The translations under genes and the position numbers were made by a program. Positions 26,193-49,797 of a stretch of DNA of 64,000 nt are shown here, piece after piece (positions within the stretch are counted from its first letter, which is position 1; each line of letters begins with the position of its first letter). Source of the DNA: Acidobacteriota bacterium (GTDB lineage Bacteria > Acidobacteriota > UBA6911); NCBI GenBank assembly GCA_012729555.1, contig JAAYCX010000051.1:17882-81881 (forward strand). Direction: 5' to 3'. The notes below the pieces were generated by a model, which was not told where the DNA came from, did not search any database, and saw only the letters and a program-made list of their open reading frames with translations.

Positions 26193-26270
<78 letters not shown>

Positions 26271-26351
26271 TTAAAATCAAGGACTTAGCAGGATTTCCCC
26301 AGACAGTTCCGGCCTTGGAAGCCGTTTGCCAGGGCCATCGGAAAGCAGGGA

Positions 26352-26642
26352 TCAGGCGGCCGTCCTGACCCTGACCCTCTCCAGTTTGGCCGTCGCTGTC
26401 GCCAAACGGAGATCGTGTTCGGTCTGAAGGTTCATCCAAAACTGCGCCGGAAGGCCGAAATATTTTCCCAGCCTCAGGGCGGTCTCGGCGGAGATTGCCC
26501 TCTTGCAGCGAACCACGTCGTAGATGCCCGGAAAATCGAGATCCTTTGCCAAACGGTAAGCCGTAATCTTCATGGGCTCCATGAATTCGGTCTTTAGAAT
26601 CTCGCCCGGATGGACCGTCCAGATCTTCTTTGTCTTTCCCAT
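26352..26642 (-). CDS. higA: HigA-family antitoxin (XRE-type HTH)
   Basis: MGKTKKIWTVHPGEILKTEFMEPMKITAYRLAKDLDFPGIYDVVRCKRAISAETALRLGKYFG matches HigA/VapI HTH antidotes. GGAGG RBS. Start at the internal ATG 26642 rather than the track's 26747. Confidence 0.8.
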   Translation of the reverse strand: MGKTKKIWTVHPGEILKTEFMEPMKITAYRLAKDLDFPGIYDVVRCKRAISAETALRLGKYFGLPAQFWMNLQTEHDLRLATATAKLERVRVRTAA

Positions 26643-26653
26643 CGAGTCCTCCG

Positions 26654-26935
26654 CTAATGATAGTCGACGATTTCCGCATCGTAAGCCCTGCCCTCCCGCC
26701 ACGCGAAGCAGATGCGGCATTGATCGTTGATCCGGATGCTGTAACAACCCTTGCGTTGCCCCTGCAACGCCTCCAGCCGGTTTCCGGGAGGCACCCTCAA
26801 ATCATCCAGCGTCACGGCGGCATGCAACAAGAAGAGCTTCTTAAGTGCCCTCATTCTCAGATTGGCGGGAATCCTTCGACTTCGCCCCGTTCGCCAAAGC
26901 TGCTCCGTATCCGCATCCCGGAAGCTCTCTATCAT
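26654..26935 (-). CDS. higB: HigB-family toxin (RelE/ParE superfamily mRNA interferase)
   Basis: C-terminal motif GCYSIRINDQCRICFAWREGRAYDAEIVDYH is typical of HigB killer proteins. Lies 11 nt upstream of higA. Confidence 0.8.
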   Translation of the reverse strand: MIESFRDADTEQLWRTGRSRRIPANLRMRALKKLFLLHAAVTLDDLRVPPGNRLEALQGQRKGCYSIRINDQCRICFAWREGRAYDAEIVDYH

Positions 26936-35699: not shown

Positions 35700-37424
35700 A
35701 TGGAGGCAGTCATGCGCGATATCGTTTTGATAGTCGGCCTGGGCGTTTTCCTGTCCGCGTGCTCGGGCGGCGGCACGGATCCGGACGGCAACGACCCACC
35801 CCCGGTTTCGAGTGCGGCCACTGTCCTTGCGGCCAACGACCTGGGGATGCACTGCATCGACTCGGAGTTCTCGATTTTTTCGATCCTGCCCCCCTACAAC
35901 ATCGTCAACGCGCAGGTGGTCCGGCGGGACGGCTCCGGGCGCCCCTACCTGGCCGATCACACGGAGGTCAGGGTCACCTTCGACGCCGTCGCCGACCCCG
36001 CGGGGTCCGTCAACAGTTTCAGCCTGGGGAAAACCAATTTCTGGCAGTACGCCGGGGCGCTCTTCGGCATGACGCTCCCCGCAGGGGAGGGCCTGACCGG
36101 GGTGTACATGCCCCGGGAACAGCCCTACACCAACGGCCCCCAGCCCATGCCGTACCATCTCCAGAAAGCGGTCTTTCACGCCGAGGGGATCCCGATCACC
36201 CCCCTGGACGACGACCTGGAAAGCAACCCCTACCCGCTCCTTCGCATTGCCGCCGCCGATGCCGTAAGCGGGGCCGCGCTCGGCCACCTGGACGTGGTCG
36301 TCCCGGTTTCCGCCGAGACCGACTGCAAGACCTGCCACAAGACCGGGGCGATGGCCGCGAGCGACCCGGGCACCGCGTGGTCCCTGTCCCCGGACCTGGA
36401 GGTCCAGAGCAAGATCAACATCCTGAGGCTCCACGACGCCGGGCACCAGACCTCCCTGGAAGCCTCCCAGCCGGTCCTGTGCGCGGGGTGCCACTATTCG
36501 CCGGCGCTCGACCTGGCCGGCACGGGGCCGGCCGGCGCGCAGATCGGCAACCCGAATTTCTCGGGTGTCATGCACGAATTTCACGGAGGACTCGAGGCGA
36601 ACGGCCAGCCGGTCTTCCCCCCGGGCGCGACGGTGCAGGAGACGTGCTACCAGTGCCACCCGGGCAACGTCACCCAATGCCAGCGCGGGGCCATGAAGAC
36701 GGGCGGGATGGACTGCCACGCCTGCCACGGGGATATGCTCGCGGTGGGGGGCAGTTACGCCCTGCTGGCGGGGGGCAGCATCGACGGCACCAATGACGGC
36801 AACGCACGCAGGCCGTGGAAGGACCTGCCCCGCTGCCAGTCGTGCCACACGGGAGACGCCCTCGGCTACCTTGCCGGGTCCGCCCTGGCGGCCGATCCCG
36901 ACTGGCCCTTCAGGCTGCGCCAGGCCTACAGGACGGGAGACGCCGCCGCTTCCCCGCTCCTGGCGGCCAACAAGCGTTTTGCCGAGAACACGAACGCCCT
37001 GTACCGCGCGAGCAAGGGGCACGGGGGGATCCTGTGCGAAGGGTGCCACGGCAGCACCCATGCCGTCTGGCCCAACGCCTCGGCGGCCGCGAACGACAAC
37101 CTGGCCGCCGAGATGCTGCAGGGGCATGCGGGCCCGGTCATCGAATGCACCACCTGTCATGCGCCCTCGAGCCTGGCGCGCACGACCAGCGGTCCCCACG
37201 GCCTTCACAACGTCAACGACTCCCGGTGGTACGACGAAGGGCACGAGGAGTTCTACGAGAACAACAAGAACGGGTGCAAGGCGTGTCACGGGGCGAACCT
37301 GACCGGGACGCCGCTCGCCCGGGTGCCGGTCGCCCGGGCATTCAGCGTGGAGGGAAAAACGTTCAGTTACGCCCGGGGAGACATGGTGCGCTGCGACCGC
37401 TGCCACGGCATGCCCGATCTCTGA
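35700..37424 (+). CDS. multihaem c-type cytochrome lipoprotein (nine CxxCH motifs)
   Basis: Lipobox VFLSACSG. Haem sites CKTCH, CAGCH, CYQCH, CHACH, CQSCH, CEGCH, CTTCH, CKACH, CDRCH. Confidence 0.85.
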   Translation: MEAVMRDIVLIVGLGVFLSACSGGGTDPDGNDPPPVSSAATVLAANDLGMHCIDSEFSIFSILPPYNIVNAQVVRRDGSGRPYLADHTEVRVTFDAVADPAGSVNSFSLGKTNFWQYAGALFGMTLPAGEGLTGVYMPREQPYTNGPQPMPYHLQKAVFHAEGIPITPLDDDLESNPYPLLRIAAADAVSGAALGHLDVVVPVSAETDCKTCHKTGAMAASDPGTAWSLSPDLEVQSKINILRLHDAGHQTSLEASQPVLCAGCHYSPALDLAGTGPAGAQIGNPNFSGVMHEFHGGLEANGQPVFPPGATVQETCYQCHPGNVTQCQRGAMKTGGMDCHACHGDMLAVGGSYALLAGGSIDGTNDGNARRPWKDLPRCQSCHTGDALGYLAGSALAADPDWPFRLRQAYRTGDAAASPLLAANKRFAENTNALYRASKGHGGILCEGCHGSTHAVWPNASAAANDNLAAEMLQGHAGPVIECTTCHAPSSLARTTSGPHGLHNVNDSRWYDEGHEEFYENNKNGCKACHGANLTGTPLARVPVARAFSVEGKTFSYARGDMVRCDRCHGMPDL

Positions 37425-37453
37425 TCCCCGCGGCGGCCGGGAATGGGAAGGCT

Positions 37454-38386
37454 ATGAGATTTCCTCACGCTTCGCACGCGGTCCTGCTGCTGGCGGGACT
37501 GGCCGGCGCCTGGCTGGTCTTCCGACTGCCGGCGCACCCGACGATTACGGAGGCGGCGGGGACCGTTGTGTCGATCGGAGAGACGGCCGGTCAAACGGCG
37601 CCGTCCCTGGCACCTCCCTCCGCTTCCGCGGCCGGCCTCCGTGAGGGGTGGAACACGCGTGCCGCGGTCCGGTACCTGCTCGGGAGCCTCCAGAGGGGGG
37701 AGCGGTTCCGAGCCTATCGGCTGGCCGGGATCATCGCGGATCCTTCGGCCCAGGGCGCCAGCCGCGCCGTCATCGAAGACCTGGAAGCGGGGACCACCCG
37801 CGCCTACGCCGTCCCCGACCCCCTTCCCGATGGTTCCCGCCTGGCCGCTATCAGGAGCAACTATGTCGTCCTGGAAAAGAACGGCGTCAGGAAACGGTTG
37901 CGGCTCCATTCCCGCCGCGGTGCCCGGAACGGCCCGGATGCCCCGGAGGCCACCGGGGCGGAGGGGTACAGAAAGATCGGCGAACGCGAGTTCGACCTGA
38001 ATCCGTACCGGGTGTTCGGGGGCGACCCCGACCGGGTCCTCGATTTCTCGCTGAAGGCGGCGCTCCGCGGGGACTCCATGGAAGGGGTGCGGATCTCCGG
38101 ACTCGATCCCGCCGGTCCGGCCCATCGCCTCGGATTGAGGGAGGGGGACGTGCTGCTGGCAGTCAACGGCAGGCCGGTCGACAGTCTCCTCGACGGCGTC
38201 CGGGCCTGCCTCGACGCGCACGGGTCCGACGACGTCGAGATCAGGCTCCGCCGCGCGGGGCGGCCCGTCACCCTGACCTACCATCTCTTCTGGCAGGGCC
38301 GCGGCTCGTGGACTGCAGCCACCGTGCTCCGATCGCGCGCCGTCGCCTCCCTTCTCGACGACGCCTCCGTTCTGCACCTTTTCTAG
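37454..38386 (+). CDS. PDZ-domain protein with N-terminal signal/TM (GspC-like architecture)
   Basis: C-terminal PDZ domain (GVRISGLDPAGPAHRLGLREGDVLLAVNGRPVDSL). Lies 30 nt downstream of the cytochrome gene on the same strand. Confidence 0.6.
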   Translation: MRFPHASHAVLLLAGLAGAWLVFRLPAHPTITEAAGTVVSIGETAGQTAPSLAPPSASAAGLREGWNTRAAVRYLLGSLQRGERFRAYRLAGIIADPSAQGASRAVIEDLEAGTTRAYAVPDPLPDGSRLAAIRSNYVVLEKNGVRKRLRLHSRRGARNGPDAPEATGAEGYRKIGEREFDLNPYRVFGGDPDRVLDFSLKAALRGDSMEGVRISGLDPAGPAHRLGLREGDVLLAVNGRPVDSLLDGVRACLDAHGSDDVEIRLRRAGRPVTLTYHLFWQGRGSWTAATVLRSRAVASLLDDASVLHLF

Positions 38387-38539
38387 AACGGTTGGTCTCG
38401 CGGGGCGCGCTGGAGGCTGCTCCAGCACAGCCAAACGCGCGTCCCCCTGGCTCATCCCTGCCACGCGGGCGTTCCATCGCTTCCGACGCCACGGAAAGTT
38501 CTCCATGGCATGATTTTAAATGCCCTGGTATGATAAAGC

Positions 38540-38794
38540 ATGAAAGGAACCACTATGAAAACAGCACCCTTTGCCACCAAACTACCAGCGGACCTGATTG
38601 CCGAGCTCGATGATGTCTGCAAGGCCCTCGGGCTGAAAAAGAACTTTGTCCTCGAAGCCGCCTTGAGGGAAAAACTCGAGGACCTGGTGGATGCCGCCGA
38701 CCTTCAGCATGCCATCAGGGAAGCCACAGGCTTCCATGCGTGGGAAGACATCAAGCGTGAGGATCGCCTGACAAGGGGCAAAATTGCCATATAA
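38540..38794 (+). CDS. type II antitoxin (RelB/DinJ or ribbon-helix-helix type)
   Basis: Small acidic 84-aa protein overlapping a RelE/ParE toxin gene by 11 nt. Confidence 0.6.
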   Translation: MKGTTMKTAPFATKLPADLIAELDDVCKALGLKKNFVLEAALREKLEDLVDAADLQHAIREATGFHAWEDIKREDRLTRGKIAI

Positions 38795-39038
38795 GCTCGA
38801 GCTGGAAACCCATGCGCGCCGTGAATACCGCGATTTGCCGATGCACGTGCGCGAACAGATCGCTGATGTCCCGGACGATCTGCAGAGGAATCCGCGTCCG
38901 CCGGGAGGCAAAAAACTGGTGGGGACAACAGGCTATCGCGTCAGAATGGGAGATTACCGCATTCTCTATACAATTGACGATGCATCATCGGTGGTGCGCG
39001 TGTACCGGATCGGGCACCGTCGTGAGATCTACCGCTGA
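38784..39038 (+). CDS. relE: type II toxin, RelE/ParE family
   Basis: C-terminal motif GYRVRMGDYRILYTIDDASSVVRVYRIGHRREIY. Confidence 0.8.
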   Translation: MPYKLELETHARREYRDLPMHVREQIADVPDDLQRNPRPPGGKKLVGTTGYRVRMGDYRILYTIDDASSVVRVYRIGHRREIYR

Positions 39039-39161
39039 GACCGGTCCCGGCCCGTGTCGTTCAGGAGACCGGCAGAGCCGGGACGTCCCCAGATTTCGTC
39101 ACCGCAGGGGGGAGCGACCCGTAGCCGGGGGGCTTTTGTCTTTTTCCGGCGAGGCCTGACG

Positions 39162-39380
39162 TCAGGCTGCTTCTCTCGGCTTGTAATGCAGAACCAACAG
39201 CTGGTCTTCTTTCAGCGCCAGACTGGCATAGGCGCGGCCGTCATTATCCGCAAACTCCACCTCAAACACATCCTGCCCCAGCAGCTCGACAACCGTTCCC
39301 ACTTGTCCACGGCGAAGTTTCCGGGCAGGCAGCTCGTCCGTCAATGCCACAACATCAAGAAGCTTGATGCTTTCGCTCAT
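39162..39380 (-). CDS. DUF4926 domain protein
   Basis: MSESIKLLDVVALTDELPARKLRRGQVGTVVELLGQDVFEVEFADNDGRAY matches the DUF4926 family as I recall it. Start at the internal ATG 39380. Lies immediately downstream of the DUF6883 gene. Confidence 0.6.
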   Translation of the reverse strand: MSESIKLLDVVALTDELPARKLRRGQVGTVVELLGQDVFEVEFADNDGRAYASLALKEDQLLVLHYKPREAA

Positions 39381-39391
39381 TTCATCTTCCT

Positions 39392-39784
39392 CTACAATAC
39401 ATAGCAACTCGTCAATCGGGGAAAATCCTCTCCCCGGCGAACGATCCAACTGCTTCGGACCACCGCCTGTCCCGATGGCCCGGTTATGCTGAAGTCTACC
39501 ACATACCGTCTACCATACTCATCGTGCTCTTCCGGCATTGCATCATTGTTTACTGCCGCCGCCCGCAGCGCACGCTGAAGATCCTGGACATGTTCAAGCG
39601 TGATCCCCAGTGATGACTTGAAGACCCGAGCCTTGTGGCACCCACGACGATGCTCGGGATTCAGGCAGTAATCCTGCAGCTTCTTTCCATCAACGACAGC
39701 CCGTTCTCCATTCGGCAGTTTCACCGTGTCGCTCTCCCTTGGGCATTGTAACACGACCCCATTTCTTTTCCGGCTCCTCGACAA
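39392..39784 (-). CDS. DUF6883 domain protein
   Basis: KLQDYCLNPEHRRGCHKARVF motif (KLxDYxLNxxH..GxxKAxxF). This family is usually encoded next to DUF4926. Confidence 0.6.
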   Translation of the reverse strand: MSRSRKRNGVVLQCPRESDTVKLPNGERAVVDGKKLQDYCLNPEHRRGCHKARVFKSSLGITLEHVQDLQRALRAAAVNNDAMPEEHDEYGRRYVVDFSITGPSGQAVVRSSWIVRRGEDFPRLTSCYVL

Positions 39785-39791
39785 GCTTTCG

Positions 39792-39811
39792 TTCAGGTCG
39801 TGCCGGGTGCG
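39792..39811. repeat. degenerate copy of the tRNA-Arg 3' end (candidate right attachment-site remnant)
   Basis: TTCAGGTCGTGCCGGGTGCG versus tRNA 3' TTCGAGTCGTGCCGGGCGCA: an 11-nt exact core (GTCGTGCCGGG) and 15/20 positions overall (17/21 if the preceding G at 39791 is included). Confidence 0.35.
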
Positions 39812-40092
39812 TGGCCGTGTAGATCAACTTCAGCTTTTGGTTTTCAAGCGTTCGGCCGTGGCGGCTTTTGGGTGTTCGCTAACAGAATTTGTGAGTTTCC
39901 CAATATCCCTATTCGAAATCCGATTTGTGCTGCTTGGATTCACGCCCTCTGGACGCGCAAGAGTTCCGGTGGTTTAATGGTACGGGAACCCGGATTCTGG
40001 GGGAATTCGCGGCTGGAGCCGCAATACCTGCAAGCGGGCAATAGATGGCCGGGGGTCGCGTGGGGGATCTATCGGAATTTCACATATACCGG

Positions 40093-40404
40093 CTAATGCT
40101 TCCCATCGCATCTTCTATTTCGTACAAATATCCATTCCAACAAATAGAGAAGACTCCATAGTGCAGCGGCGTAAAATGGAAATGACACTCCCCAATAGAT
40201 CTTGATGCGGTCGAAGTGGGAACCCTCTCCCAAAAGAAGGTCGAGAAAGCCAATGGCTGGTATATATAAACAATCCATTATCTTGTCAAATGCTGTTAAA
40301 TCGTCCTGTGATGACACAAACCGAAAGCTGGTACTCATCGCAAAAACAATGCACATCGACAGGCAACATGAAATTAGGAATCGAAGAATTTTACGCTTGT
40401 TCAT
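40093..40404 (-). CDS. small hypothetical membrane protein in the low-GC segment
   Basis: 103-aa ORF with two hydrophobic segments. AT-rich codon usage unlike the rest of the window. Weak call. Confidence 0.25.
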   Translation of the reverse strand: MNKRKILRFLISCCLSMCIVFAMSTSFRFVSSQDDLTAFDKIMDCLYIPAIGFLDLLLGEGSHFDRIKIYWGVSFPFYAAALWSLLYLLEWIFVRNRRCDGKH

Positions 40405-40570
40405 CTGATGTTGACCCCAAAATCCCGACGCACCCTAGCTTTGTCAATGTCCCATTATCTAGCCTAGAGCTTGTTTAGCTTCCTGATTTCATCATCTCTA
40501 ATCAATTGTTGATTCATAGGAAAAAGCTTCTGTTCTTCCTGCTTTCTAGTGGGCACCCCCCCATATTGGC

Positions 40571-40870
40571 TCACCAACCTGCCAGAAATGATACTGGCGC
40601 AGGGGGGCGCTGCATACTGATCCAACGCAGTTCGGTGAATTTCTCCAGGCCCGCCCGGACGCCGAACCGACCCCAGCCGCTGCCCTTGATCCCCCCGAAG
40701 GGGATCTTCGGCTCGTCGTGCACGGTCTGGTCGTTGATGTGCACGATCTCCGATTCGTTCCTCTCTCCGCGTTGTCTCCGCTTAATCATTGCACAGAATT
40801 TCCCAACTGGTTTGTCCTGTTTTGAGTGCCATGATTCCTCCCGTTGTTCGGGGGTATCATAGGCATTCAC
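40571..40870 (-). pseudogene. aldehyde dehydrogenase 3'-terminal gene fragment (remnant)
   Basis: The last ~55 codons (IVHINDQTVHDEPKIPFGGIKGSGWGRFGVRAGLEKFTELRWISMQRPP) are near-identical to the C-terminus of the intact ALDH at 41539-42996. The upstream part is unrelated low-GC sequence. Confidence 0.6.
40590..40757. repeat. 168-bp direct repeat, copy A (ALDH 3' end)
   Basis: About 90% identical to 41547-41714. Marks the left end of a ~790-bp low-GC insert. Confidence 0.7.
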
Positions 40871-40995
40871 CAGGCCCTTGGGAATGAGGGGATCATTGCA
40901 CGCTTACCTACTTGCGCATGAAAAACAGTGGCCCAGTCATGCAAGAAGAGTGAACTTACAGAAAATATGTCGCTCTGTCGGGGATCAATGCACGC

Positions 40996-41478
40996 TTACT
41001 CTTCATCACCGTAATATTGAAAGTCGAAAGTACACTCGAGATTCAGATCGGCTAGATTACGCATTTGCTTTGGCCAAAGCGTCGGACCGCCTCCTCCGAA
41101 TTGAGACCACCAGATGCAATGTACAAGCATTTCGACCCCTCTTTCTGCCTGAAGCAATTTTATGGCTTCAGTACGTGGTTCCAATCTTTCATATATCCAA
41201 TCCAGGTGGCGTCTCAGATCTTTCGATATGACAAATGTTTCGGAAGACAAAAACCAACAGTTAACTTTGTCAATCCGAACACGTCCCGTCATAATGCCAT
41301 AATGCTTCTCCCCAGCAATTACCTCTTCCGTTGGTTTAATTCCCATTATCTCGGTCACTTCCGAGGGTTTCATTTTACCTGAGTAGATACGCAATTCTGC
41401 GCATGTCCGTTCACAGGATTCATCCGAATCATCGATTGGGTGTAAAAAAAGGAAATTATCTGTTTTGTTATCAATCAT
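40996..41478 (-). CDS. DUF4279-like protein encoded in the low-GC insert
   Basis: AELRIYSGKMKPSEVTEIMGIKPTEEVIAGEK resembles the DUF4279 N-terminal motif as I recall it. GC content is far below the window average. Confidence 0.45.
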   Translation of the reverse strand: MIDNKTDNFLFLHPIDDSDESCERTCAELRIYSGKMKPSEVTEIMGIKPTEEVIAGEKHYGIMTGRVRIDKVNCWFLSSETFVISKDLRRHLDWIYERLEPRTEAIKLLQAERGVEMLVHCIWWSQFGGGGPTLWPKQMRNLADLNLECTFDFQYYGDEE

Positions 41479-41538
41479 CGCAGATAATGTACAATATTAC
41501 CAGGTTCGCAAAATCCAACTGTTTATGACACGGTAGTA

Positions 41539-42996
41539 CTAGAAAGGATACTGGCGCGGGGAGCGCTGCATGCTGATCCAGCGCAGCTCGGTGAATTCCT
41601 CCAGGCCCGCGCGGCCGCCGAACCGGCCCCAGCCGCTGTCCTTGATCCCCCCGAAGGGGACCTGCGGCTCGTCGTGCACGGTCTGGTCGTTGATGTGCAC
41701 GATCCCCGATTCGATCCGCTCGGCGATGGCCAGCCCCCGGTTGAAATCGCGCGTGATCACCGAGGCGGAGAGCCCGTAGCGGGTTTCGTTCGCCACGGCG
41801 ATCGCCTGCTCGACGTCGTCCACCTCGATGATGGACACCACCGGGCCGAAGGTCTCCTCGCAGCTGAAGGGGGTGCCGGGCCGGGCTCCCGCGACCACGG
41901 TCGGGAGGTAGCAGGGGCCCTCGGCCCTGCCTCCGCACAGGATCCGCGCGCCGTCCCTGACGGCGCCCGCCACGCTCTTCTGGATGTCCTCGAGCTGGCC
42001 CCGGTTGATGATCGGCCCGATGACGGTTTCCGGGTCGCGGGGGTTCCCCACCTTGAGGCCCGACACCCGCTTGACGAACTGCTCGGTGAAGCGGGCGGCC
42101 ACCGGGCGCTCGATCAGGATGCGGCGCGTGGACATGCAGATCTGCCCCTGGTGGAGGAAGGCGCCGAAGGTGGCGGCGCGCACGGCGTGATCGATGTCGG
42201 CGTCGGCGAGGATGATCATGGGGTTCTGCCCCCCCAGTTCCAGGGCCACGCGCTTGAGGTGGCGCCCCGCCTTCTCGGCCAGCTGGCGCCCGACGGAGGA
42301 GGAACCGGTCATGGAGATGCGGCGCACGATCGGGTTCTCGATGAACTCGTCCCCGATTTCGCCGCTCCGGCCGGGACCGTTGGTGACGACGTTCAGGACC
42401 CCTTTGGGAAAGCCGGCCTGGTGGAACACCTCGGCGATCAGGACGCCGCCGGCGGCCGAGGACTCGGTCGAGGGCTTGAGCACCGCCGTGTTGCCGTACG
42501 CGATGGGCATGCAGATCGAGCGCAGCGACAGGATCAGCGGCGCGTTCCAGGGCCCGATGCCGGCCACCACCCCCACCGGCTGGCGCAGGGTCATGTGAAA
42601 GGCGCCGGGGAGGTCGGAGGGGAGGATTTCCCCGGCGGACTGGTGCACCTGGGAAGCGGCCTCCCGCAGCAACCCGGGGGTGAAGCCCGCCTGGAACATG
42701 GCAAAACCGGAGGCGCAGCCCGTCTCCTCCGCGAGAATGGCCACGACTTCGTCCCTCTTCTGCTCCAGGATATCGCCGGCCTTGAGGAAGAGGCGCCGGC
42801 GCTCGGAGGGGAGGGTGCGGGACCAGGCCGGGAACGCGGCCGCGGCGGCGGCCACCGCGCGGGCGGCGTCGGCCCGCTTGCCCGAGGCCACGCGGGCGAA
42901 AACCTCCCCGGTGAAGGGATTGAAGTCCTCGTAGAACTCGCCGTCGGCCGCCTCGCTCCACGCCCCGTCGATGTACATCCGGTATTCCCTGACCAT
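41539..42996 (-). CDS. NAD(P)-dependent aldehyde dehydrogenase
   Basis: ALDH glutamate and cysteine active-site regions (LELGGQNP, FLHQGQICMSTRR). 485 aa. Confidence 0.9.
   Translation of the reverse strand: MVREYRMYIDGAWSEAADGEFYEDFNPFTGEVFARVASGKRADAARAVAAAAAAFPAWSRTLPSERRRLFLKAGDILEQKRDEVVAILAEETGCASGFAMFQAGFTPGLLREAASQVHQSAGEILPSDLPGAFHMTLRQPVGVVAGIGPWNAPLILSLRSICMPIAYGNTAVLKPSTESSAAGGVLIAEVFHQAGFPKGVLNVVTNGPGRSGEIGDEFIENPIVRRISMTGSSSVGRQLAEKAGRHLKRVALELGGQNPMIILADADIDHAVRAATFGAFLHQGQICMSTRRILIERPVAARFTEQFVKRVSGLKVGNPRDPETVIGPIINRGQLEDIQKSVAGAVRDGARILCGGRAEGPCYLPTVVAGARPGTPFSCEETFGPVVSIIEVDDVEQAIAVANETRYGLSASVITRDFNRGLAIAERIESGIVHINDQTVHDEPQVPFGGIKDSGWGRFGGRAGLEEFTELRWISMQRSPRQYPF
41547..41714. 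repeat. 168-bp direct repeat, copy B (within the 3' end of the intact ALDH gene)
   Basis: About 90% identical to 40590-40757. Confidence 0.7.
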
Positions 42997-43104
42997 GGCC
43001 CCCTCCTTGGTTGAATGCCTCCCCCCATCATAATCCGGCCGGGGCGATTTTCCACCGGCTATCGAGCGGCGCGCGCCTTTTCCAGCGGGGACGGGCCGCC
43101 GCTG

Positions 43105-43881
43105 CTACTGCAGCAACCGGCGGTAGACCGCCTCGTCGCCGGCCGTGAACACGTCGAAGACCACCCGGGCGACCCCGCACCCCCGGTCGAGGGTCTCCCG
43201 GACCGTGCGCACGGCGATCCCGGCGGCCTCCTCCCGCGGGAAGCGGAAGACCCCGGTGGAGATCGCGCAGAAGGCAACGGCGCGGCAGCCGTTCTCTTCG
43301 GCCAGCCTAAGACAGCGGGAGTAGCAGGAAGCGAGCAGCTCCCGGTCGCGCTCCGACACCCGCGCGTGGATGATGGGCCCCACCGTGTGGAGCACGTATC
43401 GCGCCGGGAGGTTGTAGCCGGGGGTGATCTCGGCCCGCCCGGTCGGTTCCGGGTGCCCCTGCCGCTCCATGATCTCGTGGCACCGCAGCCGCAACTGCAC
43501 CCCGGCCCAGGTGTGGATGCAGTTGTCGATGCAGTCGTGGCACGGCTCCCAGCACCCTTCCATCCGGCTGTTGGCGGCGTTGACGATGGCGTCTATCCGC
43601 AGCGTGGTGATGTCCCCCCGCCACAGGACCAGGCGCGGGTCGGCCGTCGCCGGCAGGGCGTCGGCGTCGACCACCCCCCGCCGGGCCGTCTCCGCCTGCA
43701 GGTACTCGTCCTGCACCCGGAGGAATTCCTCGCCAGCCGGGCGGGCGGGGCGGACGTTCATGAGGGAGCGGAGCAGCCGCCACCGTTCCTCCCCTCCCTG
43801 CGGAACCGCCACGCCGCGGTACCGGTCGTCTTCCGCCAGCAGCGCCTCGATCAGGGTCCGCAGCCTCTCCTCCTGGGTCAT
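43105..43881 (-). CDS. macrodomain protein (MacroD-like ADP-ribose / O-acetyl-ADP-ribose hydrolase) with ~75-aa N-terminal extension
   Basis: LVLWRGDITTLRIDAIVNAANSRMEG and GYNLPARYVLHTVGP macro motifs. Start at ATG 43881 (ATGA overlap with the Sir2 stop); the track's 43105..44271 ORF carries a spurious G/R-rich extension. Confidence 0.8.
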   Translation of the reverse strand: MTQEERLRTLIEALLAEDDRYRGVAVPQGGEERWRLLRSLMNVRPARPAGEEFLRVQDEYLQAETARRGVVDADALPATADPRLVLWRGDITTLRIDAIVNAANSRMEGCWEPCHDCIDNCIHTWAGVQLRLRCHEIMERQGHPEPTGRAEITPGYNLPARYVLHTVGPIIHARVSERDRELLASCYSRCLRLAEENGCRAVAFCAISTGVFRFPREEAAGIAVRTVRETLDRGCGVARVVFDVFTAGDEAVYRRLLQ

Positions 43882-44846
43882 GCCCCCTCCCCGGCCGCCA
43901 CGCCCGCCGGCGCGCCCGCCGGTGCGCCTTCCGCCTTCGCGAACCGGACGTGCAGCCGTTCGATCACCTCGCCGGCGTCCCACGGCATCGGGGTCGCCCG
44001 CCCCGCGAGTTCGGCCGGGACCATGGCGAAGCCCCCGTGGCCGGGCCACTCCCGGTACTCCCGGTTGACGCGGAAGAGGTGGGCCCGCCCGTGCAGGTGC
44101 GCCAACCGCTCGAAGGGCCAGCGGATGACCCCCGGGGTGTTGAACCCCACCCCAAGTTCGAGGATGCAGAGGCGTCCGCCCGCGGTCCCCTCGATCCACT
44201 CCTCGTAGCGCCCCCGCTCCTCCCGGTACCCATCGAAGGAGCGGAACGCCGTCGCGAGCGACGCCCCGCACGAGGGGCAGCGGGGGATGGCGCTCTCATC
44301 GGAAATCGTGAAGGTCTCCGGGTCGATGAGCGGGAGGAGCCGGTCGATGACGGGCTCGACGGCCCAGGTCTCCCGCGTGCAGCCGGCCGTGCAGCGGAGC
44401 CGGTCGTAGCTCCCCTGGGCCTCGAACACCCGCTCCATGGGGAAGCCGGTGCGCAAAAGCTGCCGGTCGCAGTTGGAGGTGACGACGAAAAAATCCCGCC
44501 CCGCAAGGAGCGCGAGGAGTTTCCGGTAGAGTTCGGCCGGGGGGAAGACGTGGCGCACGAAATGGATATGCCGGACGAGGTAGGCCCACTCCCTCGCCTC
44601 GGGCCACCCTTCCTTCTCCCGCTCGAACAGCTGGTAGGGGTAGTGGTAGCCCCGGGCCGCCATCTCGGGCTGAAACCGCCGGAAGAGGTCCTCGTCGAGG
44701 TAGCTGAGCCCGGCGGCGGCCGAAAGCCCGGCCCCCGCGCCGACGAGGACCCGGTCGGAATTCTCGAGCCACTCCCCCAGGGCGTCGACCGCTTCCGCCA
44801 GCCCTCCGCTCCCGGCCTTCGCGTATATCCACTCACTCTCACGCAT
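43878..44846 (-). CDS. Sir2-family (sirtuin-like) NAD-dependent protein
   Basis: GAGLSAAAGL (GAGxS NAD loop). TSNCDRQL (TQNID-like). Zn ribbon CTAGC...CPSCG. LELGVG. The canonical HG catalytic motif appears as QGS in the region where I would expect it (by-eye alignment). Confidence 0.7.
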   Translation of the reverse strand: MRESEWIYAKAGSGGLAEAVDALGEWLENSDRVLVGAGAGLSAAAGLSYLDEDLFRRFQPEMAARGYHYPYQLFEREKEGWPEAREWAYLVRHIHFVRHVFPPAELYRKLLALLAGRDFFVVTSNCDRQLLRTGFPMERVFEAQGSYDRLRCTAGCTRETWAVEPVIDRLLPLIDPETFTISDESAIPRCPSCGASLATAFRSFDGYREERGRYEEWIEGTAGGRLCILELGVGFNTPGVIRWPFERLAHLHGRAHLFRVNREYREWPGHGGFAMVPAELAGRATPMPWDAGEVIERLHVRFAKAEGAPAGAPAGVAAGEGA

Positions 44847-44987
44847 CCGGACCTCCCCGCAAACCTTTCCATATTACCCATCGGGGGGGAGGGCGTAAAG
44901 GGCGCTCCGGCCCCGGGGCCGGGCCCGATTTTGGACCGGGCGCCGTCCGAACCGGTGTAAAATCGAAGGAAGGAAACGGAGGGGGAC

Positions 44988-45896
44988 ATGCTGGACATTG
45001 AGGGGAAGGGGGCCTTCGTCACGGGGGGCGCCAGCGGGATCGGGCTCGGGATCGCCGAAGCGATGGTCGACGCCGGCATGAAGGTGGTGATCGCCGACAT
45101 GCAGGAGGACTACCTCGGGGAGGCCCTCCGGGGCTTCCGGCAGCGGGGGCGCGGAGAGAGCGTGCACGGGCTGCTCCTCGACGTGACCGACCGCGCGGCT
45201 TTCGAGCAGGCGGCCGACGAGGCGGAGGGGGTGTTCGGCAAAATTCACGTGCTCTCTGCCAACGCCGGCGTCGGCATCCTCGGCCCGGTCGGGGACGCGA
45301 AATACGGCGACTGGGACTGGGCCCTGGGAGTGATGGTCGGCGGCGTCGTCAACGCCCTCCAGGTTTTCCTCCCCCGCATCCTGCGCCACGGCGAGGGGGG
45401 GCACATCGTCGCCACCTCCTCCATGTCGGGGGTGCTCCCGCTGCCGGGCACCGCCATCTACTCGACGGCCAAGGGGGCGGTCGTGGCCCTGTGCGAGGCG
45501 CTGCGGGGGGAACTGGCCCCGGACAAGATCGGAATATCCGCCTTCTGCCCCGGGCCGGTGGCCACCCGGATCAGCCGGACCGGGCGTCTCCGGCCGGAAA
45601 AGTACCGGAAGGAGAGCGGCTACGCCGAAATGGAGCGCCGGATCGAGAACCGCCCCGCCTTCCGGAGCGAGATGAGCCCCGGGGAGTGCGGCCGGAGGGT
45701 GCTCGACGGCATCCGGCGCAACGATCTGTACATCTTCACCCACCGGGAATTCCGGGAAGGGGTCGCGGAAAAAATGGAGGCCATGCTCGCCTCCTTCCCG
45801 GACGAGCCGGTCGACGGCGCACGGGCGAAGGAATTCGCCTTTCTGACCTCCAATCCCATATACCGGGAGATCCTCGAAAGGAAGGGGCGCGCATGA
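44988..45896 (+). CDS. SDR-family short-chain dehydrogenase/reductase
   Basis: TGGASGIGLG Rossmann motif and YSTAK catalytic motif. Confidence 0.85.
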   Translation: MLDIEGKGAFVTGGASGIGLGIAEAMVDAGMKVVIADMQEDYLGEALRGFRQRGRGESVHGLLLDVTDRAAFEQAADEAEGVFGKIHVLSANAGVGILGPVGDAKYGDWDWALGVMVGGVVNALQVFLPRILRHGEGGHIVATSSMSGVLPLPGTAIYSTAKGAVVALCEALRGELAPDKIGISAFCPGPVATRISRTGRLRPEKYRKESGYAEMERRIENRPAFRSEMSPGECGRRVLDGIRRNDLYIFTHREFREGVAEKMEAMLASFPDEPVDGARAKEFAFLTSNPIYREILERKGRA

Positions 45897-46792
45897 AGAA
45901 CGTGGAAGGGAAGGTGGCCTTCATCACCGGCGGGGCGAGCGGCGCCGGCCTGGGGATGGCCCGGGTGTTTCTGAAAAACGGGATCCGGGTCGCGATCGCC
46001 GACATCCGCCGGGACAGCCTCGACCGCGCCATGGCCGGGTTCGAGCGGGGGGCGGAAGTGCACCCGATCCTGCTCGACGTGGCCGACCGCGAGGCGATGG
46101 CGCGCGCGGCCGACGAGACCGAACGGGTGTTCGGCCGGGTGCACATCGTGTGCAACAACGCCGGGATCAACCTCTTCGTCCCGATCGAGGAGTGCACCTA
46201 CAACGACTGGGACTGGGTCATGGGGGTCGATTTCGGCGGGGTGGTCAACGGCGTCCAGACCTTCGTCCCCCGCATCCGGCGGCACGGCGAAGGGGGCCAC
46301 ATCGTCAACACCGCCTCGATGGCCGCCTTCCTGCCGAGCCCGCTGGCGGGGGCGTACACGGCCGCCAAGTTCGCCGTGCGCGGCCTGAGCGAGGCGCTCC
46401 GGCTGAGCCTCTACCACCACAACATCGGCGTCTCGGTCTTCTGCCCCGGGCTGATCAACAGCGCGATCTACGAAAGCGAAAAGATGCGGCCCGATGCGCT
46501 CCCCTCGCCCGAAAACACCGAGCGCAACCGCCGCTTCATGGACCGGCTCCCCGAAATCCACCGGTTCGGGATGGACCCGGAGGAGGTGGGGGAAAAGGTC
46601 CTGGCCGGAATCCGCGCCAACGACCTCTACATCTTCAGCCACCCCGAATTCCGGGACGAACTGAGGGAGATGTTCGACCGGACGCTCGCGGCCGTCCCCG
46701 CGGGGGAGGTCCCGGCCGAGCGCCTGGCGTTCGAGCAGGGGCGGCGCGAGGGGCTCGAAAAGGACAGGAAAGGGGCCGACGCGATCGGCTGA
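45893..46792 (+). CDS. SDR-family short-chain dehydrogenase/reductase (tandem paralog)
   Basis: TGGASGAGLG and YTAAK motifs. ATGA overlap with the upstream SDR. Start at ATG 45893; the track's 45491 start is an extension. Confidence 0.85.
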   Translation: MKNVEGKVAFITGGASGAGLGMARVFLKNGIRVAIADIRRDSLDRAMAGFERGAEVHPILLDVADREAMARAADETERVFGRVHIVCNNAGINLFVPIEECTYNDWDWVMGVDFGGVVNGVQTFVPRIRRHGEGGHIVNTASMAAFLPSPLAGAYTAAKFAVRGLSEALRLSLYHHNIGVSVFCPGLINSAIYESEKMRPDALPSPENTERNRRFMDRLPEIHRFGMDPEEVGEKVLAGIRANDLYIFSHPEFRDELREMFDRTLAAVPAGEVPAERLAFEQGRREGLEKDRKGADAIG

Positions 46793-48570: not shown

Positions 48571-49704
48571 ATGATCGGCCTCGTCAGCAGCCCGGACACC
48601 CGGCAGAAGCTCGAGATCCTGAGCGCGGACGCCCAGTACGACCTGGCGTGCGCCTGCGGCACCGGCAAGGACGACCGCCGGCGGCGAGGGTCCGGGGACG
48701 GCTGGATCTATCCCGTGACCCTCGCCGGCGGGGGCACGAGCGTCCTGTTCAAGACCCTGGTCTCGAACGTCTGCGCCAACGACTGCCTCTACTGCCCGCT
48801 GCGGGCGGACCAGGACGTGCGCCGCTGCGCCCTCACCGGGGAGGAGACCGTCCGGGCCTTCCTCGATTACTACACGCGCGGCAGGGTGTTCGGCCTCTTT
48901 CTCACCTCGGGGGTGCCGGGAACGCCCGACGCCGCCATGGAGCAGCTGATCCGCGTCGCCCGCATCCTGCGCACCCGGCACGGCTTCAGGGGCTACATCC
49001 ACCTCAAGATCATCCCGGGCGCCAGCGCCGCCGCCGTCGAGGAGGCGGTTTCCCTCTCGACCGCGGTCTCGCTCAACATCGAGACCCCCGGGGCGCGCCA
49101 CCTCGCCCGCCTCTCCCGGCGCAAGGACTTCCTGCACGACATCGTGGAGCCGATCAAGCTGGTCAGCCGCCTGACGGCCCCCGGCGCGCGCTACGAGCGG
49201 GTGAAGCAGACCACCCAGTTCGTGGTGGGGGCGGCGGAGGAGACCGACGCCGAGATCGTGCGCTACATGGGGGGGCTCTACGACCGGCTCCGGCTCCAGC
49301 GCGTCTACTTCAGCGCCTACCAGAAGGGGCCGGGGGACTCCGCGCCGGCGGGGGAGGGCGCACGGACCGGCCGGGACGCCCTGGCCCGGGAACACCGCCT
49401 CTACCAGGTCGATTTCCTGATGCGGCGGTACGGGTTCGCCGCCGCGGAGATCGGCTTCGACCCCTCCGGCAACCTCCCGCTGGAACTCGACCCGAAGGAG
49501 GAGTGGGCGCGGAGGCACCCGGAGTTCTTCCCGCTGGACATCAACCGCGCTCCCGCGCGCGACCTGCTGCGGGTCCCGGGGCTGGGGGAGGTCACCGTGC
49601 GCCGGATCGTGGAGCGGCGCAAGGGCTCGAGGATCCGGGCCCTCGACGAGGTGGCCCGTCCCACGGCGTGGATCCGGAAGGCGGGAGGATACCTCAGAGC
49701 CTAG
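48571..49704 (+). CDS. radical SAM protein, putative DNA modification/repair type (CxxxCxxC + C-terminal HhH)
   Basis: CANDCLYC cluster motif. C-terminal helix-hairpin-helix (DLLRVPGLGEVTVRRIV). Starts 2 nt after the selenoprotein-candidate stop. Confidence 0.7.
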   Translation: MIGLVSSPDTRQKLEILSADAQYDLACACGTGKDDRRRRGSGDGWIYPVTLAGGGTSVLFKTLVSNVCANDCLYCPLRADQDVRRCALTGEETVRAFLDYYTRGRVFGLFLTSGVPGTPDAAMEQLIRVARILRTRHGFRGYIHLKIIPGASAAAVEEAVSLSTAVSLNIETPGARHLARLSRRKDFLHDIVEPIKLVSRLTAPGARYERVKQTTQFVVGAAEETDAEIVRYMGGLYDRLRLQRVYFSAYQKGPGDSAPAGEGARTGRDALAREHRLYQVDFLMRRYGFAAAEIGFDPSGNLPLELDPKEEWARRHPEFFPLDINRAPARDLLRVPGLGEVTVRRIVERRKGSRIRALDEVARPTAWIRKAGGYLRA

Positions 49705-49797
49705 CGCTTCGCTCCCATGGCGCCCTGGGCTCGCTACGGTTTGTGTCCGCCCGGAACAGCCCCTGCCGGAGCCATCGAGGATTTCCTGCAGATCCCG

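What the first reader, a model, noticed from the sequence alone, without database searches (positions are those of the whole stretch)
39800..41714. Low-GC insert flanked by 168-bp direct repeats of an aldehyde dehydrogenase 3' end
From about 39800 to 41530 the GC content drops sharply (roughly 40-50% against ~70% elsewhere). Coding density also collapses: only a DUF4279-like ORF and a small membrane ORF remain.

The segment is bounded by two ~90%-identical direct repeats of 168 bp. Copy A (40590-40757) is the terminal part of a truncated ALDH pseudogene. Copy B (41547-41714) is the 3' end of the intact ALDH gene. This looks like a foreign insertion mediated by, or accompanied by, duplication of the target gene's 3' end. 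Alternatively, a donor-derived ALDH fragment provided homology for recombination.
Basis: seen in the sequence. Interest (0 to 1): 0.55.

Follow-up and report, generated by a model that had tools for sequence, protein, structure and literature searches.

The report
Gene insertion with duplicated target end
A small foreign gene (a likely toxin-immunity gene) sits right after the stop codon of an aldehyde dehydrogenase gene and is flanked by two copies of that gene's last ~186 bases. No recombinase gene is present, so this is a clean but not unprecedented case of "insertion with long target duplication", inside a strain-variable patch of toxin/antitoxin genes.

Summary
The repeat is real: 182 nt at 91.2% identity (about 189 nt with the fading end), copy A 40584-40772 and copy B 41539-41727.

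Copy B is the native 3' end of an intact ALDH gene. Copy A is a decaying pseudo-fragment with a frameshift and a lost stop codon; 12 of its roughly 15 differences are unique to it.

Only 766 bp (40773-41538, 44% GC) lies between the copies. It carries one gene, DUF4279 (FdL-Imm5 immunity family).

A related strain provides the empty site. In L113-L117, one ALDH 3' end is followed directly by the flank that follows copy A in the window.

The low-GC island is larger than reported (38432-41538) and composite. It holds RelB/ParE, BECR-Tox3(DUF6883)/DUF4926 and a small membrane ORF. An older 49-nt ALDH remnant (copy C, 38383-38431) abuts the convergent PDZ gene.

Relatives carry other cargo here, with ALDH remnants of 27, 49, 166 and 186 nt next to the PDZ gene. 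That argues against a single att site. No integrase, transposase, attC site or convincing terminal inverted repeat was found.

Best fit is recombinase-free insertion with long target duplication, known from restriction-modification genes, at a recurrent hotspot. One contig (L005) suggests recent cassette spread by homologous recombination but could be an assembly chimera.

This is a new member of a known kind, of moderate interest.

The parts
37454..38386 (+). PDZ-domain / T2SS-C-like gene. It is the conserved left border of the hotspot and is convergent with ALDH.
   Evidence: Pfam PDZ_6 8e-12 and T2SSC. A 310-aa gene is called here in L001. Orthologues at 83-91% identity border variable DNA in relatives.
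38383..38431 (-). Copy C, an old 49-nt remnant of the ALDH 3' end (reads LCWSSLQRAPRDQPF*). Its stop codon CTA overlaps the TAG stop of the PDZ gene.
   Evidence: 77.6% identity to 41539-41587. Alignment score 54 against shuffles of 18 +/- 2.9 (maximum 31 in 2000). The same overlapping-stop layout, with a better-preserved 166-nt remnant, occurs in L095.
38540..38794 (+). RelB/ParD-like antitoxin gene.
   Evidence: NCBIfam antitoxin_RelB_like 6e-8, below the curated cutoff. It overlaps the ParE gene. It is 96-100% identical at the protein level in L093, L094 and L096.
38784..39038 (+). ParE/RelE-family toxin gene.
   Evidence: Pfam ParE_toxin 1.5e-10.
39162..39449 (-). DUF4926 gene, the partner (immunity/antitoxin) of DUF6883.
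   Evidence: Pfam DUF4926 2.3e-22. The pairing is described in bioRxiv 10.64898/2026.08.28.747851.
39392..39784 (-). DUF6883 gene, reclassified as the BECR-Tox3 RNase toxin family.
   Evidence: Pfam DUF6883 8.4e-30. Reclassification.
40093..40404 (-). 103-aa small membrane ORF (41% GC). The segment 39813-40516 that holds it is absent from L113, which has HTH_31 + DUF433-DUF5615 instead.
   Evidence: Eight homologues among 1.84 billion representative proteins, best full-length matches 40-48% identity. No Pfam, NCBIfam or PADLOC hit. Segment replacement shown.
40517..40583 (.). Flank downstream of copy A. It is homologous to the sequence that directly follows the ALDH stop codon in the empty-site strain.
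   Evidence: Window 40765-40517 aligns with L113 11276-11523 (86% over 249 nt). The flank alone matches at 49/67.
40584..40772 (-). Copy A, the distal copy of the duplicated target. It is an ALDH 3' pseudo-fragment with a frameshift and stop TAG->TGG.
   Evidence: 91.2% identity to copy B. Twelve differences are unique to A, 8 GC->AT against 3 AT->GC; 6 are non-synonymous, some at residues conserved across the aligned orthologues.
40773..41538 (-). The inserted unit: 766 bp at 44% GC, absent from L113-L117. It starts right after the ALDH stop codon.
   Evidence: Three-way alignment of empty and filled sites. GC. Its last 32 nt (40773-40804) match the DNA downstream of the closest DUF4279 homologue in L104.
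40996..41478 (-). DUF4279 gene (160 aa, intact), a likely orphan immunity gene of a polymorphic toxin system.
   Evidence: Pfam DUF4279 3.7e-18, covering profile positions 2-116 of 116. DUF4279 = FdL-Imm5 in PMC9424270; proposed cognate immunity partner of an Rhs-Ntox33 toxin in PMC13304343. The nearest non-self homologue is 73% identical.
40888..40999 (+). 20-nt direct repeat (40888-40907 and 40980-40999, 19/20) spanning a 72-nt spacer. The second copy covers the DUF4279 stop codon.
   Evidence: Meaning unknown.
41539..41727 (-). Copy B, the proximal copy of the duplicated target and the functional 3' end of ALDH.
   Evidence: 180/182 identical to the single copy in L113. Native codon usage (GC3 0.94) and no drop in identity to relatives.
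41539..42996 (-). Intact aldehyde dehydrogenase gene (485 aa), the right border of the hotspot.
   Evidence: Pfam Aldedh 3e-154, covering profile positions 1-461 of 461. The same protein occurs on at least 23 contigs.

Best explanation
**What is shown**
- The PDZ gene and the ALDH gene of this uncultured Acidobacteriota bacterium originally met tail to tail with overlapping stop codons.
- That junction has become a hotspot. Small, low-GC, self-contained conflict genes have been inserted there repeatedly.
- The youngest layer is a 766-bp unit carrying one intact DUF4279 (FdL-Imm5-type immunity) gene and a candidate promoter-like upstream spacer.
- The unit lies immediately after the ALDH stop codon. 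The last ~186 bp of ALDH are present on both sides of it.
- The proximal copy (B) keeps ALDH intact. The distal copy (A) is free of selection and is decaying.
- An older event of the same type put the RelB/ParE module between PDZ and ALDH. It duplicated the junction itself, leaving copy C next to PDZ in the window. In strain L096 it also left a PDZ' fragment next to ALDH.
- No integrase, transposase or attC machinery is present.

**What is inferred**
- The primary events were recombinase-independent joins that duplicated a long, variable stretch of target. Possible routes are a widely staggered break with fill-in, or a microhomology-mediated join.
- Only insertions that regenerate both gene ends survive selection, because the two genes share their stop codons.
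- Once formed, the flanking target copies act as portable homology arms. Ordinary homologous recombination can then delete the unit or move it into a related naive chromosome.
For: **Empty site**
- L113-L117 carry an ALDH allele 5 aa different from the window's, found on 24 contigs from several samples.
- In them, one ALDH 3' end is followed directly by the flank that follows copy A in the window.
- Identities: B to empty site 180/182; A to empty site 164 of 185 aligned columns; flank 49/67.

**Copy B is native, not foreign**
- GC3 is 0.94 and there is no discontinuity in identity to relatives.

**Copy A is a decayed local copy**
- Twelve differences are unique to A, GC->AT biased, with a frameshift and stop-codon loss.

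**No mobility machinery**
- Precomputed Pfam calls show no recombinase within +/-10 kb.
- Island ORFs, including the unannotated ones, have no recombinase hit.
- No attC-like hairpins, no Rfam match above noise, and terminal inverted repeats only at noise level.

**Recurrent events with variable breakpoints**
- ALDH remnants next to PDZ measure 27 nt (L101), 49 nt (window, L093, L094, L096) and 166 nt (L095). Copy A adds 186 nt.
- In L096 the ParDE unit is flanked by a ~150-nt repeat spanning the PDZ/ALDH junction. Its PDZ' fragment scores 65 against shuffles of 28 +/- 4.

**Strain-variable cargo**
- HTH_31 + DUF433/DUF5615 in L094 and L113.
- Serpin + DUF2442 in L095.
- A GGDEF-EAL gene starting exactly after the ALDH stop in L098, L099 and L105-L112.

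**Possible recent spread by recombination**
- L005 has an L099-type ALDH (99.5% identity).
- It is 100% identical to the window over the 674 nt from 72 nt before the stop codon through DUF4279.

**Precedent**
Against: - The primary joining mechanism is not observed. Sequence alone cannot tell a one-step duplicative insertion from duplication followed by insertion.
- Polarity is not proven. L113 could have lost the unit by A x B recombination.
- The insertion point coincides exactly with the stop codon. That is also what an element carrying a surrogate gene end would give.
- The inner breakpoints of copy A (186 nt) and of the L095 remnant (166 nt) lie only 20 nt apart. This could hint at a preferred site.
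- L005, the only evidence for recent transfer, is a k=31 Logan contig. Both parental lineages co-occur in at least one other sample (L009 and L112 from ERZ27268595). The two types share a 47-nt identical stretch at the switch point, so a chimera is possible.
- All the data are metagenome assemblies.
Confidence: 0.72

Rival explanations
1. Remnant of an integrase-mediated island of the e14/phage-21 type. The element integrates inside the 3' end of a protein gene and brings its own replacement 3' end. Copy B would then be element-borne and copy A the displaced native end. The integrase and most of the element would have been deleted later.
For: - The topology is the same as icd/icd' in E. coli, where e14 leaves a 163-bp pseudo-icd' (PMC6379469).
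- Homology stops exactly at the stop codon.
- Several nested copies (C, A, B) resemble tandem accretion at one att site.
Against: - No recombinase gene or pseudogene was found in the island or within +/-10 kb, or in any of the variant islands of relatives.
- Copy B is indistinguishable from the native single copy of the empty-site strain (180/182) and has native codon usage.
- Breakpoints differ between events: 27, 49, 166 and 186 nt.
- The L096 event also duplicated the end of the neighbouring PDZ gene. An element-borne surrogate ALDH end would not explain that.
- No match to the ALDH end was found in viral contigs.
Confidence: 0.1
2. Two separate steps, or a degraded paralogue. Either a spontaneous short tandem duplication of the ALDH end came first and foreign DNA later landed between the copies. 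Or an old second ALDH copy was whittled down by deletions to the present fragments.
For: - Remnants of different lengths next to PDZ (27, 49 and 166 nt) could be deletion end points.
- In L095 no full ALDH lies within 7 kb of the remnant.
Against: - Foreign DNA would have to land precisely at the duplication joint, at least twice at this locus.
- Copy A contains no ALDH sequence upstream of ~186 nt. It is joined directly to cassette DNA that is homologous to the DUF4279 locus of L104.
- The empty-site strain has exactly one copy and the same downstream flank.
- The PDZ' fragment in L096 shows that the junction itself, not a whole ALDH gene, was duplicated.
Confidence: 0.1
3. Integron-type gene cassettes or a transposon/MITE. 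The small ORFs would be cassettes captured at attC sites, or a unit moved by a transposase acting in trans.
For: - Small, promoter-proximal, toxin-antitoxin-rich, low-GC ORFs are typical of chromosomal cassette arrays.
- There is a weak inverted repeat at 40909-40929/41518-41538, with one arm at the insert end.
Against: - No attC-like imperfect palindromes between the ORFs.
- No intI within +/-10 kb.
- The ORFs are in mixed orientation.
- The inverted repeat is 71% complementary over 21 nt. That is the same level as 16 other chance pairs in the same 786 nt.
- The duplication of 186 bp is far beyond transposase-type target duplications.
Confidence: 0.03

Closest known systems
Insertion with long target duplication (Nobusato et al. 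2000, Gene 259:99; Furuta, Abe & Kobayashi 2010, PMC2853133; reviewed in PMC3874152)
   Same: - A small, compositionally foreign gene unit with no integrase or transposase.
- It is flanked by direct repeats of tens to hundreds of bp that both align to a single-copy sequence in a related genome lacking the unit.
- Repeat lengths vary between events.
- The repeats often overlap gene 3' ends.
- The cargo is a 'selfish' or conflict-type gene.
   Different: - The cargo here is not a restriction-modification system. It is an orphan DUF4279 immunity-type gene, and a RelB/ParE pair in the older event. A cargo-encoded DNA-cutting enzyme therefore cannot explain the DUF4279 event.
- The host is an uncultured Acidobacteriota bacterium.
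- The events are nested at one convergent-gene junction with overlapping stop codons.
e14 / phage 21 integration into icd of E. coli (Hill et al. 1989; summarised in PMC6379469)
   Same: An insertion in or at the 3' end of a protein-coding gene. The gene stays intact, and a ~160-190-bp pseudo-copy of its 3' end is left on the far side of the insert.
   Different: - e14 is a 15-kb prophage with its own integrase and a fixed att core, and the gene end it supplies is phage-derived.
- Here the insert is 0.77 kb with no recombinase.
- The functional end is native-like.
- Independent events at the locus have different breakpoints.
Toxin-antitoxin / defence-gene hotspots between conserved core genes (general concept of genomic 'hotspots'; own knowledge)
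   Same: One interval between two conserved genes holds different small toxin-antitoxin, immunity or regulatory modules in closely related strains.
   Different: Hotspots are usually explained by homologous recombination in the flanking core genes, or by integrases. Here the junctions themselves carry duplicated target sequence that records how units were added.

Membership tests
Insertion with long target duplication (criteria of Furuta et al. 2010, PMC2853133) | The insert is flanked by direct repeats longer than 30 bp. | tested here: met
   182 nt at 91.2% identity (about 189 nt with the fading end): 40584-40772 and 41539-41727.
Insertion with long target duplication (criteria of Furuta et al. 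2010, PMC2853133) | Both repeats align with one single-copy sequence in a related genome that lacks the insert (an empty site with similarity on both sides). | tested here: met
   In L113-L117, B to E is 180/182, A to E is 164 of 185 aligned columns, the downstream flank is 49/67, and the upstream ALDH side is 98% identical.
Insertion with long target duplication (criteria of Furuta et al. 2010, PMC2853133) | The insert is shorter than 20 kb and carries no mobility genes (integrase, transposase, phage genes). | tested here: met
   The insert is 766 bp with one gene, DUF4279. There are no recombinase hits in the island or within +/-10 kb.
Insertion with long target duplication (criteria of Furuta et al. 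2010, PMC2853133) | The inserted unit contains restriction and modification genes (as the class was originally surveyed). | tested here: not met
   The cargo is DUF4279. The older unit is RelB/ParE. The architecture matches, but the cargo class differs.
Site-specific integrative element at a gene 3' end (e14/icd type) | The element encodes, or is adjacent to, a tyrosine or serine recombinase. | tested here: not met
   None in the window island, within +/-10 kb, or in the variant islands of L093-L096, L099, L105-L117.
Site-specific integrative element at a gene 3' end (e14/icd type) | Independent integrations share one att core position. | tested here: not met
   Breakpoints lie at 27, 49, 166 and ~186 nt from the ALDH stop codon.
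Site-specific integrative element at a gene 3' end (e14/icd type) | The gene end joined to the gene after integration is element-derived and differs from the native end. | tested here: not met
   Copy B matches the single copy of the empty-site strain at 180/182, has GC3 of 0.94, and shows no identity discontinuity.
Integron cassette array / CALIN | attC recombination sites (imperfect palindromes of about 60-140 nt) at cassette boundaries, with intI nearby for a complete integron. | tested here: not met
   Only short, chance-level inverted repeats between the ORFs. No integrase within +/-10 kb. A dedicated attC covariance model was not available.
IS / transposon / MITE | Terminal inverted repeats, a short (2-15 bp) target duplication, and multiple copies. 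| tested here: not met
   The best terminal inverted repeat is 21 nt at 71%, which is noise level. The duplication is ~186 bp. The unit is single-copy in the window.
DUF4279 / FdL-Imm5 immunity proteins of polymorphic toxin systems (PMC9424270) | A full-length DUF4279 domain. | tested here: met
   Pfam PF14106, 3.7e-18, profile positions 2-116 of 116.
DUF4279 / FdL-Imm5 immunity proteins of polymorphic toxin systems (PMC9424270) | The gene lies immediately downstream of a cognate toxin gene. | tested here: not met
   The upstream neighbour is ALDH and no toxin domain is adjacent. It is therefore an 'orphan' immunity-type gene. Its function was not tested.

The most novel reading that the evidence does not exclude
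Long target duplications may be more than scars. They could be the working parts of a recombinase-free mobility cycle for small conflict genes such as immunity, toxin-antitoxin and RM genes.

The two target copies flanking a cassette would serve as portable homology arms. Host RecA-type recombination could then excise the unit, or paste it into the same gene end of any related naive chromosome and regenerate the duplication.

The L005 mosaic would be a direct trace of such a hop: an L099-type ALDH that switches, inside the repeat, to 674 nt identical to the window and carrying DUF4279. The motif-rich cassette end (AAGCGGAKACA), meeting a similar sequence in ALDH (GAGCGGATCGA), would mark how the first join was made.
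Probability: 0.3. Interest if true: 0.6.

Novelty: new member of a known kind. Interest (0 to 1): 0.4.

Why it matters
- It gives a well-documented case of gene insertion with a ~186-bp target duplication and no recombinase. The filled site, the empty site and older nested layers are all available.
- The case lies outside the restriction-modification systems and the mostly naturally competent species in which this mode was surveyed.
- The DUF4279 cargo encodes no nuclease. This weakens the idea that cargo-made DNA breaks are needed for this kind of insertion.
- It shows how two convergent genes that share their stop codons can still host a growing, strain-variable stack of toxin-antitoxin and immunity genes without either gene being lost.
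- For annotation, the 99-aa 'ALDH' ORF and the 49-nt remnant are pseudogene scars, not genes.

Tried and rejected
- **Integron cassettes.** No attC-like palindromes and no intI.
- **Transposon or MITE.** Terminal inverted repeats are only at noise level and the unit is single-copy.
- **Structured RNA.** No Rfam hit above noise in 37000-43500.
- **Recombinase pseudogene.** Eight leftover ORFs in the non-coding stretches have no Pfam hit at E<=1.
- **Known defence systems.** No PADLOC hit for the six island proteins.
- **Phage or viral carrier of the ALDH end.** No match in viral contigs.
- **Donor lineage of DUF4279.** The nearest non-self homologue is only 73% identical and sits on a short unassigned contig. 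No donor can be named.
- **Extension of copy C beyond 49 nt.** Not significant; 415 of 500 shuffles score as high.
- **A PDZ' remnant in the flank of copy A** (40525-40548, 17/24 matches). Not significant.
- **A recombination breakpoint inside ALDH at the repeat boundary.** No discontinuity in identity or GC3.
- **Different histories for the two flanks of the hotspot in L113.** Both sides are about 92-95% identical to the window.
- **Empty site in GTDB genomes via ALDH.** Only L013 is syntenic and its contig stops at the ALDH end. The 83%-identical ALDHs are not syntenic.
- **Distant PDZ homologues (45%).** Not syntenic.
- **tRNA-end duplication around the HigBA-like pair next to tRNA-Arg.** None found.


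Full report

GC drops from about 67-70% to 47.6% over 39800-41530. A direct repeat of the ALDH 3' end exists at 40584-40765 and 41541-41721. It is 182 nt long, 91.2% identical, has one indel and a start-to-start spacing of 957 nt. It is the only high-identity repeat in the 64-kb window. The structure is 100% identical in independent JGI and ENA assemblies, and a Logan contig is 99.7% identical, so it is not an assembly artefact.

Three corrections are needed:
- The low-GC island begins at about 38432, not 39800. It is 3.1 kb at 51.7% GC.
- Copy A lies inside the island, so the repeats bound only 766 bp (40773-41538, 44% GC).
- The island is not gene-poor overall.

**2. Anatomy**

Read in the direction of ALDH (the minus strand), the locus contains the following features in order:

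| Feature | Coordinates | Notes |
|---|---|---|
| ALDH | 42996-41539 | 485 aa, full Pfam Aldedh match |
| Spacer | 41538-41479 | 60 nt, AT-rich |
| DUF4279 | 41478-40996 | 160 aa, full-length domain |
| Non-coding | 40995-40773 | 223 nt, contains a 20-nt direct repeat |
| Copy A | 40772-40584 | ALDH 3' pseudo-fragment |
| Flank | 40583-40517 | 66 nt |
| Membrane ORF | 40404-40093 | 103 aa |
| Non-coding | 40092-39785 | 308 nt |
| DUF6883 / DUF4926 pair | 39784-39162 | minus strand |
| ParE / RelB-like pair | 39038-38540 | plus strand |
| Copy C | 38431-38383 | 49-nt ALDH remnant |
| PDZ gene | 37454-38386 | convergent, plus strand |

DUF4279 is the FdL-Imm5 immunity family of polymorphic toxin systems (PMC9424270). 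It has been proposed as the cognate immunity partner of an Rhs-Ntox33 effector (PMC13304343). DUF6883 has been reassigned to BECR-Tox3 RNase toxins, with DUF4926 as the conserved partner (bioRxiv 10.64898/2026.08.28.747851). The island is therefore a stack of conflict-system genes.

**3. Which copy is which?**

Copy B is the functional end of ALDH. Its GC3 is 0.94, like the rest of the gene, and its identity to relatives shows no step at the repeat boundary.

Copy A has a 1-nt insertion and its stop codon has changed from TAG to TGG. Against outgroups (L005, L013, L095, L096, L098, L099), 12 of its roughly 15 differences from B are unique to A. None is unique to B. Eight are GC->AT and three are AT->GC. 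Six are non-synonymous, including changes in the conserved IKDSGW, FGGRAG and EEF motifs. Copy A is 89-90% identical to this clade's ALDH but 78% or less to other taxa. It is a decaying local duplicate, not a fragment from a distant donor.

**4. The third copy**

Positions 38383-38431 match the last 49 nt of ALDH at 77.6% identity. The alignment score is 54, against shuffles of 18 +/- 2.9 with a maximum of 31 in 2000. The remnant is in frame and reads LCWSSLQRAPRDQPF*. Its stop codon CTA overlaps the TAG of the PDZ gene.

In relative L095 the PDZ gene is followed, with the same overlap, by a well-preserved 166-nt ALDH end that is 98% identical to copy B. PDZ and ALDH therefore originally met tail to tail with overlapping stop codons. 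Everything between 38432 and 41538 was added later.

**5. Empty site for the DUF4279 unit**

Strains carrying ALDH allele P0167 differ from the window's ALDH by 5 aa. This allele was found on 24 contigs (L113-L117). Their gene order is ALDH, a 61-aa ORF, DUF5615/DUF433, HTH_31, DUF6883, DUF4926, ParE/ParD, PDZ.

The window's copy A plus its 66-nt downstream flank (40765-40517) aligns with L113's single ALDH end plus the DNA directly after its stop codon (11276-11523). Copy B's homology to L113 stops exactly at the stop codon. The identities are: B to empty site 180/182, A to empty site 164 of 185 aligned columns, A to B 166/182, flank 49/67.

This meets the published operational criteria for 'insertion with long target duplication'. 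Those criteria are repeats over 30 bp, both aligning to one target in a genome without the insert, an insert under 20 kb, and no mobility genes (PMC2853133). The exception is that the cargo is not an RM system.

**6. A recurrent, strain-variable hotspot**

Relatives found through the PDZ protein, the ALDH cluster and a DNA pattern show different contents:
- **L096:** PDZ, copy C, ParDE, a ~70-nt PDZ' pseudo-fragment, then the ALDH end. The ParDE unit is flanked by a ~150-nt duplication of the junction itself. The PDZ' fragment scores 65 against shuffles of 28 +/- 4. This is hard to explain other than by target duplication.
- **L095:** PDZ, a 166-nt ALDH remnant, then a low-GC serpin/DUF2442 island.
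- **L101:** PDZ, a ~27-nt remnant, then other DNA.
- **L094 and L113:** an HTH_31 + DUF433/DUF5615 module where the window has the membrane-ORF segment.
- **L098, L099 and L105-L112** (a sister lineage, ALDH about 95% identical): a low-GC GGDEF-EAL gene begins right after the ALDH stop codon.

The ALDH breakpoints (27, 49, 166 and ~186 nt from the stop codon) differ between events. That argues against a single att core.

**7. What is absent**
- No integrase, transposase or recombinase in the island, within +/-10 kb, or in any variant island.
- No attC-like palindromes.
- No Rfam family.
- No convincing terminal inverted repeats.
- No PADLOC system.
- No copy of the ALDH end in viral contigs.

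**8. A hint of recent movement**

L005 (Logan assembly of SRR5007517) is 99.5% identical to the L099-type lineage over 254 nt of upstream DNA and ALDH. The two then part exactly at the stop codon. Against the window, L005 has 92 mismatches in positions 1-1640 and none in positions 1641-2314. That second stretch covers the last 72 nt of ALDH plus the DUF4279 unit. The switch lies inside copy B.

Taken at face value, this is a cassette moved between lineages that are about 4-5% diverged in ALDH, by homologous recombination with the ALDH end as one arm. A cassette flanked by two copies of one target can enter a naive target by an ordinary double crossover and recreate the duplication. This step is my inference.

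There is a caveat. The two lineages co-occur in at least one other sample (L009 and L112 from ERZ27268595). They share a 47-nt identical stretch at the switch point. A k=31 chimera therefore cannot be excluded.

**9. Origin of the unit**

The closest DUF4279 homologue (71-73% protein identity) lies on a short 46%-GC contig, L104, next to a PIN toxin-antitoxin pair. At the DNA level the window insert matches L104 from 24 nt upstream of the start codon to the stop codon (79% identity). It matches again over its last 32 nt (40773-40804, 87.5%).

That second match ends in the motif AAGCGGAKACA. The motif occurs 7 times in 165 nt downstream of the L104 gene, against 0.1 expected. ALDH reads GAGCGGATCGA at the junction, so a microhomology-guided join is possible. 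This is inference from one locus. No donor lineage can be named.

**10. Verdict**

The wider low-GC region is a composite of further events at the same junction.

The best-supported mechanism is recombinase-independent insertion with long target duplication. Selection retains only events that rebuild both overlapping gene ends. Homologous recombination through the duplicated arms then probably handles loss and spread.

The closest known analogue is the RM-gene insertions described by Nobusato/Furuta/Kobayashi (PMC2853133, PMC3874152). The e14/icd system has the same topology (PMC6379469). It fails on three tests: no recombinase, a native-like functional copy, and variable breakpoints.

This is a new member of a known but little-studied kind, of moderate interest. 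Its main value is a clean filled/empty pair with non-nuclease cargo.

Noticed in passing
window 26194-26935: A HigB/HigA-like toxin-antitoxin pair (ORFs 26654-26935 and 26352-26747, minus strand) sits in a ~0.8-kb GC dip (52-58%) right after tRNA-Arg(ACG) at 26194-26270. The assignment is by reading the sequences, not by a family search. No duplication of the tRNA end was found.
   Followed up: partly
window 40888-40907 and 40980-40999: A 20-nt direct repeat (19/20 identical) 92 nt apart. The second copy covers the DUF4279 stop codon. The related 11-mer GATCAWTGCAC occurs three times within 210 nt (40784-40993). Meaning unknown.
   Followed up: partly
window 40773-40804; L104 770-934: The inner end of the insert matches L104 903-934 and ends in AAGCGGAGACA. 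The motif AAGCGGAKACA occurs 7 times, in both orientations, within 165 nt downstream of the DUF4279 homologue in L104 (0.1 expected). It may be a protein-binding or recombinogenic cluster.
   Followed up: partly
window 39839-39884; L094 12993-13038: A 46-nt stretch upstream of DUF6883 recurs at 95.7% identity, in inverted orientation, at the very end of the L094 contig, downstream of its DUF5615 gene.
   Followed up: no
window 40571-40870 (minus strand): Gene callers annotate a 99-aa 'aldehyde dehydrogenase' ORF here. Only residues 39-84 are ALDH-derived (copy A, read through its lost stop codon). The first 38 aa come from cassette DNA. It is a pseudogene chimera.
   Followed up: yes
L013 (CAZWXG010000036.1) and L098 (LSQX01353348.1): Contigs of public MAG and metagenome assemblies end at the ALDH stop codon (L013) or about 200 nt downstream of it (L098). 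This is consistent with assembly breaks caused by strain heterogeneity or low coverage of the low-GC inserts. GCA_016934555.1 contains two different PDZ alleles (L095, L096), so it is a mixed bin.
   Followed up: partly
window 43105-44846 (minus strand): Directly upstream of ALDH lie a macro-domain gene (Pfam Macro 2e-37) and a 322-aa ORF with only weak sirtuin-like matches. This could be a sirtuin/macrodomain ADP-ribosylation pair. It is conserved in relatives.
   Followed up: no
window 48584-49749: The radical-SAM gene present in the window strain (seen in L001) is missing from the otherwise collinear L113 strain. This is another indel between the two lineages.
   Followed up: no
window 15882-17568 and 44987-46451: Two pairs of adjacent paralogous genes at about 68-71% nucleotide identity. 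The second pair is short-chain dehydrogenases. These are ordinary tandem paralogues.
   Followed up: no
L095 1344-4400: In one relative, the equivalent position next to the PDZ gene holds a low-GC island encoding a serpin (443 aa) and a DUF2442 protein.
   Followed up: no
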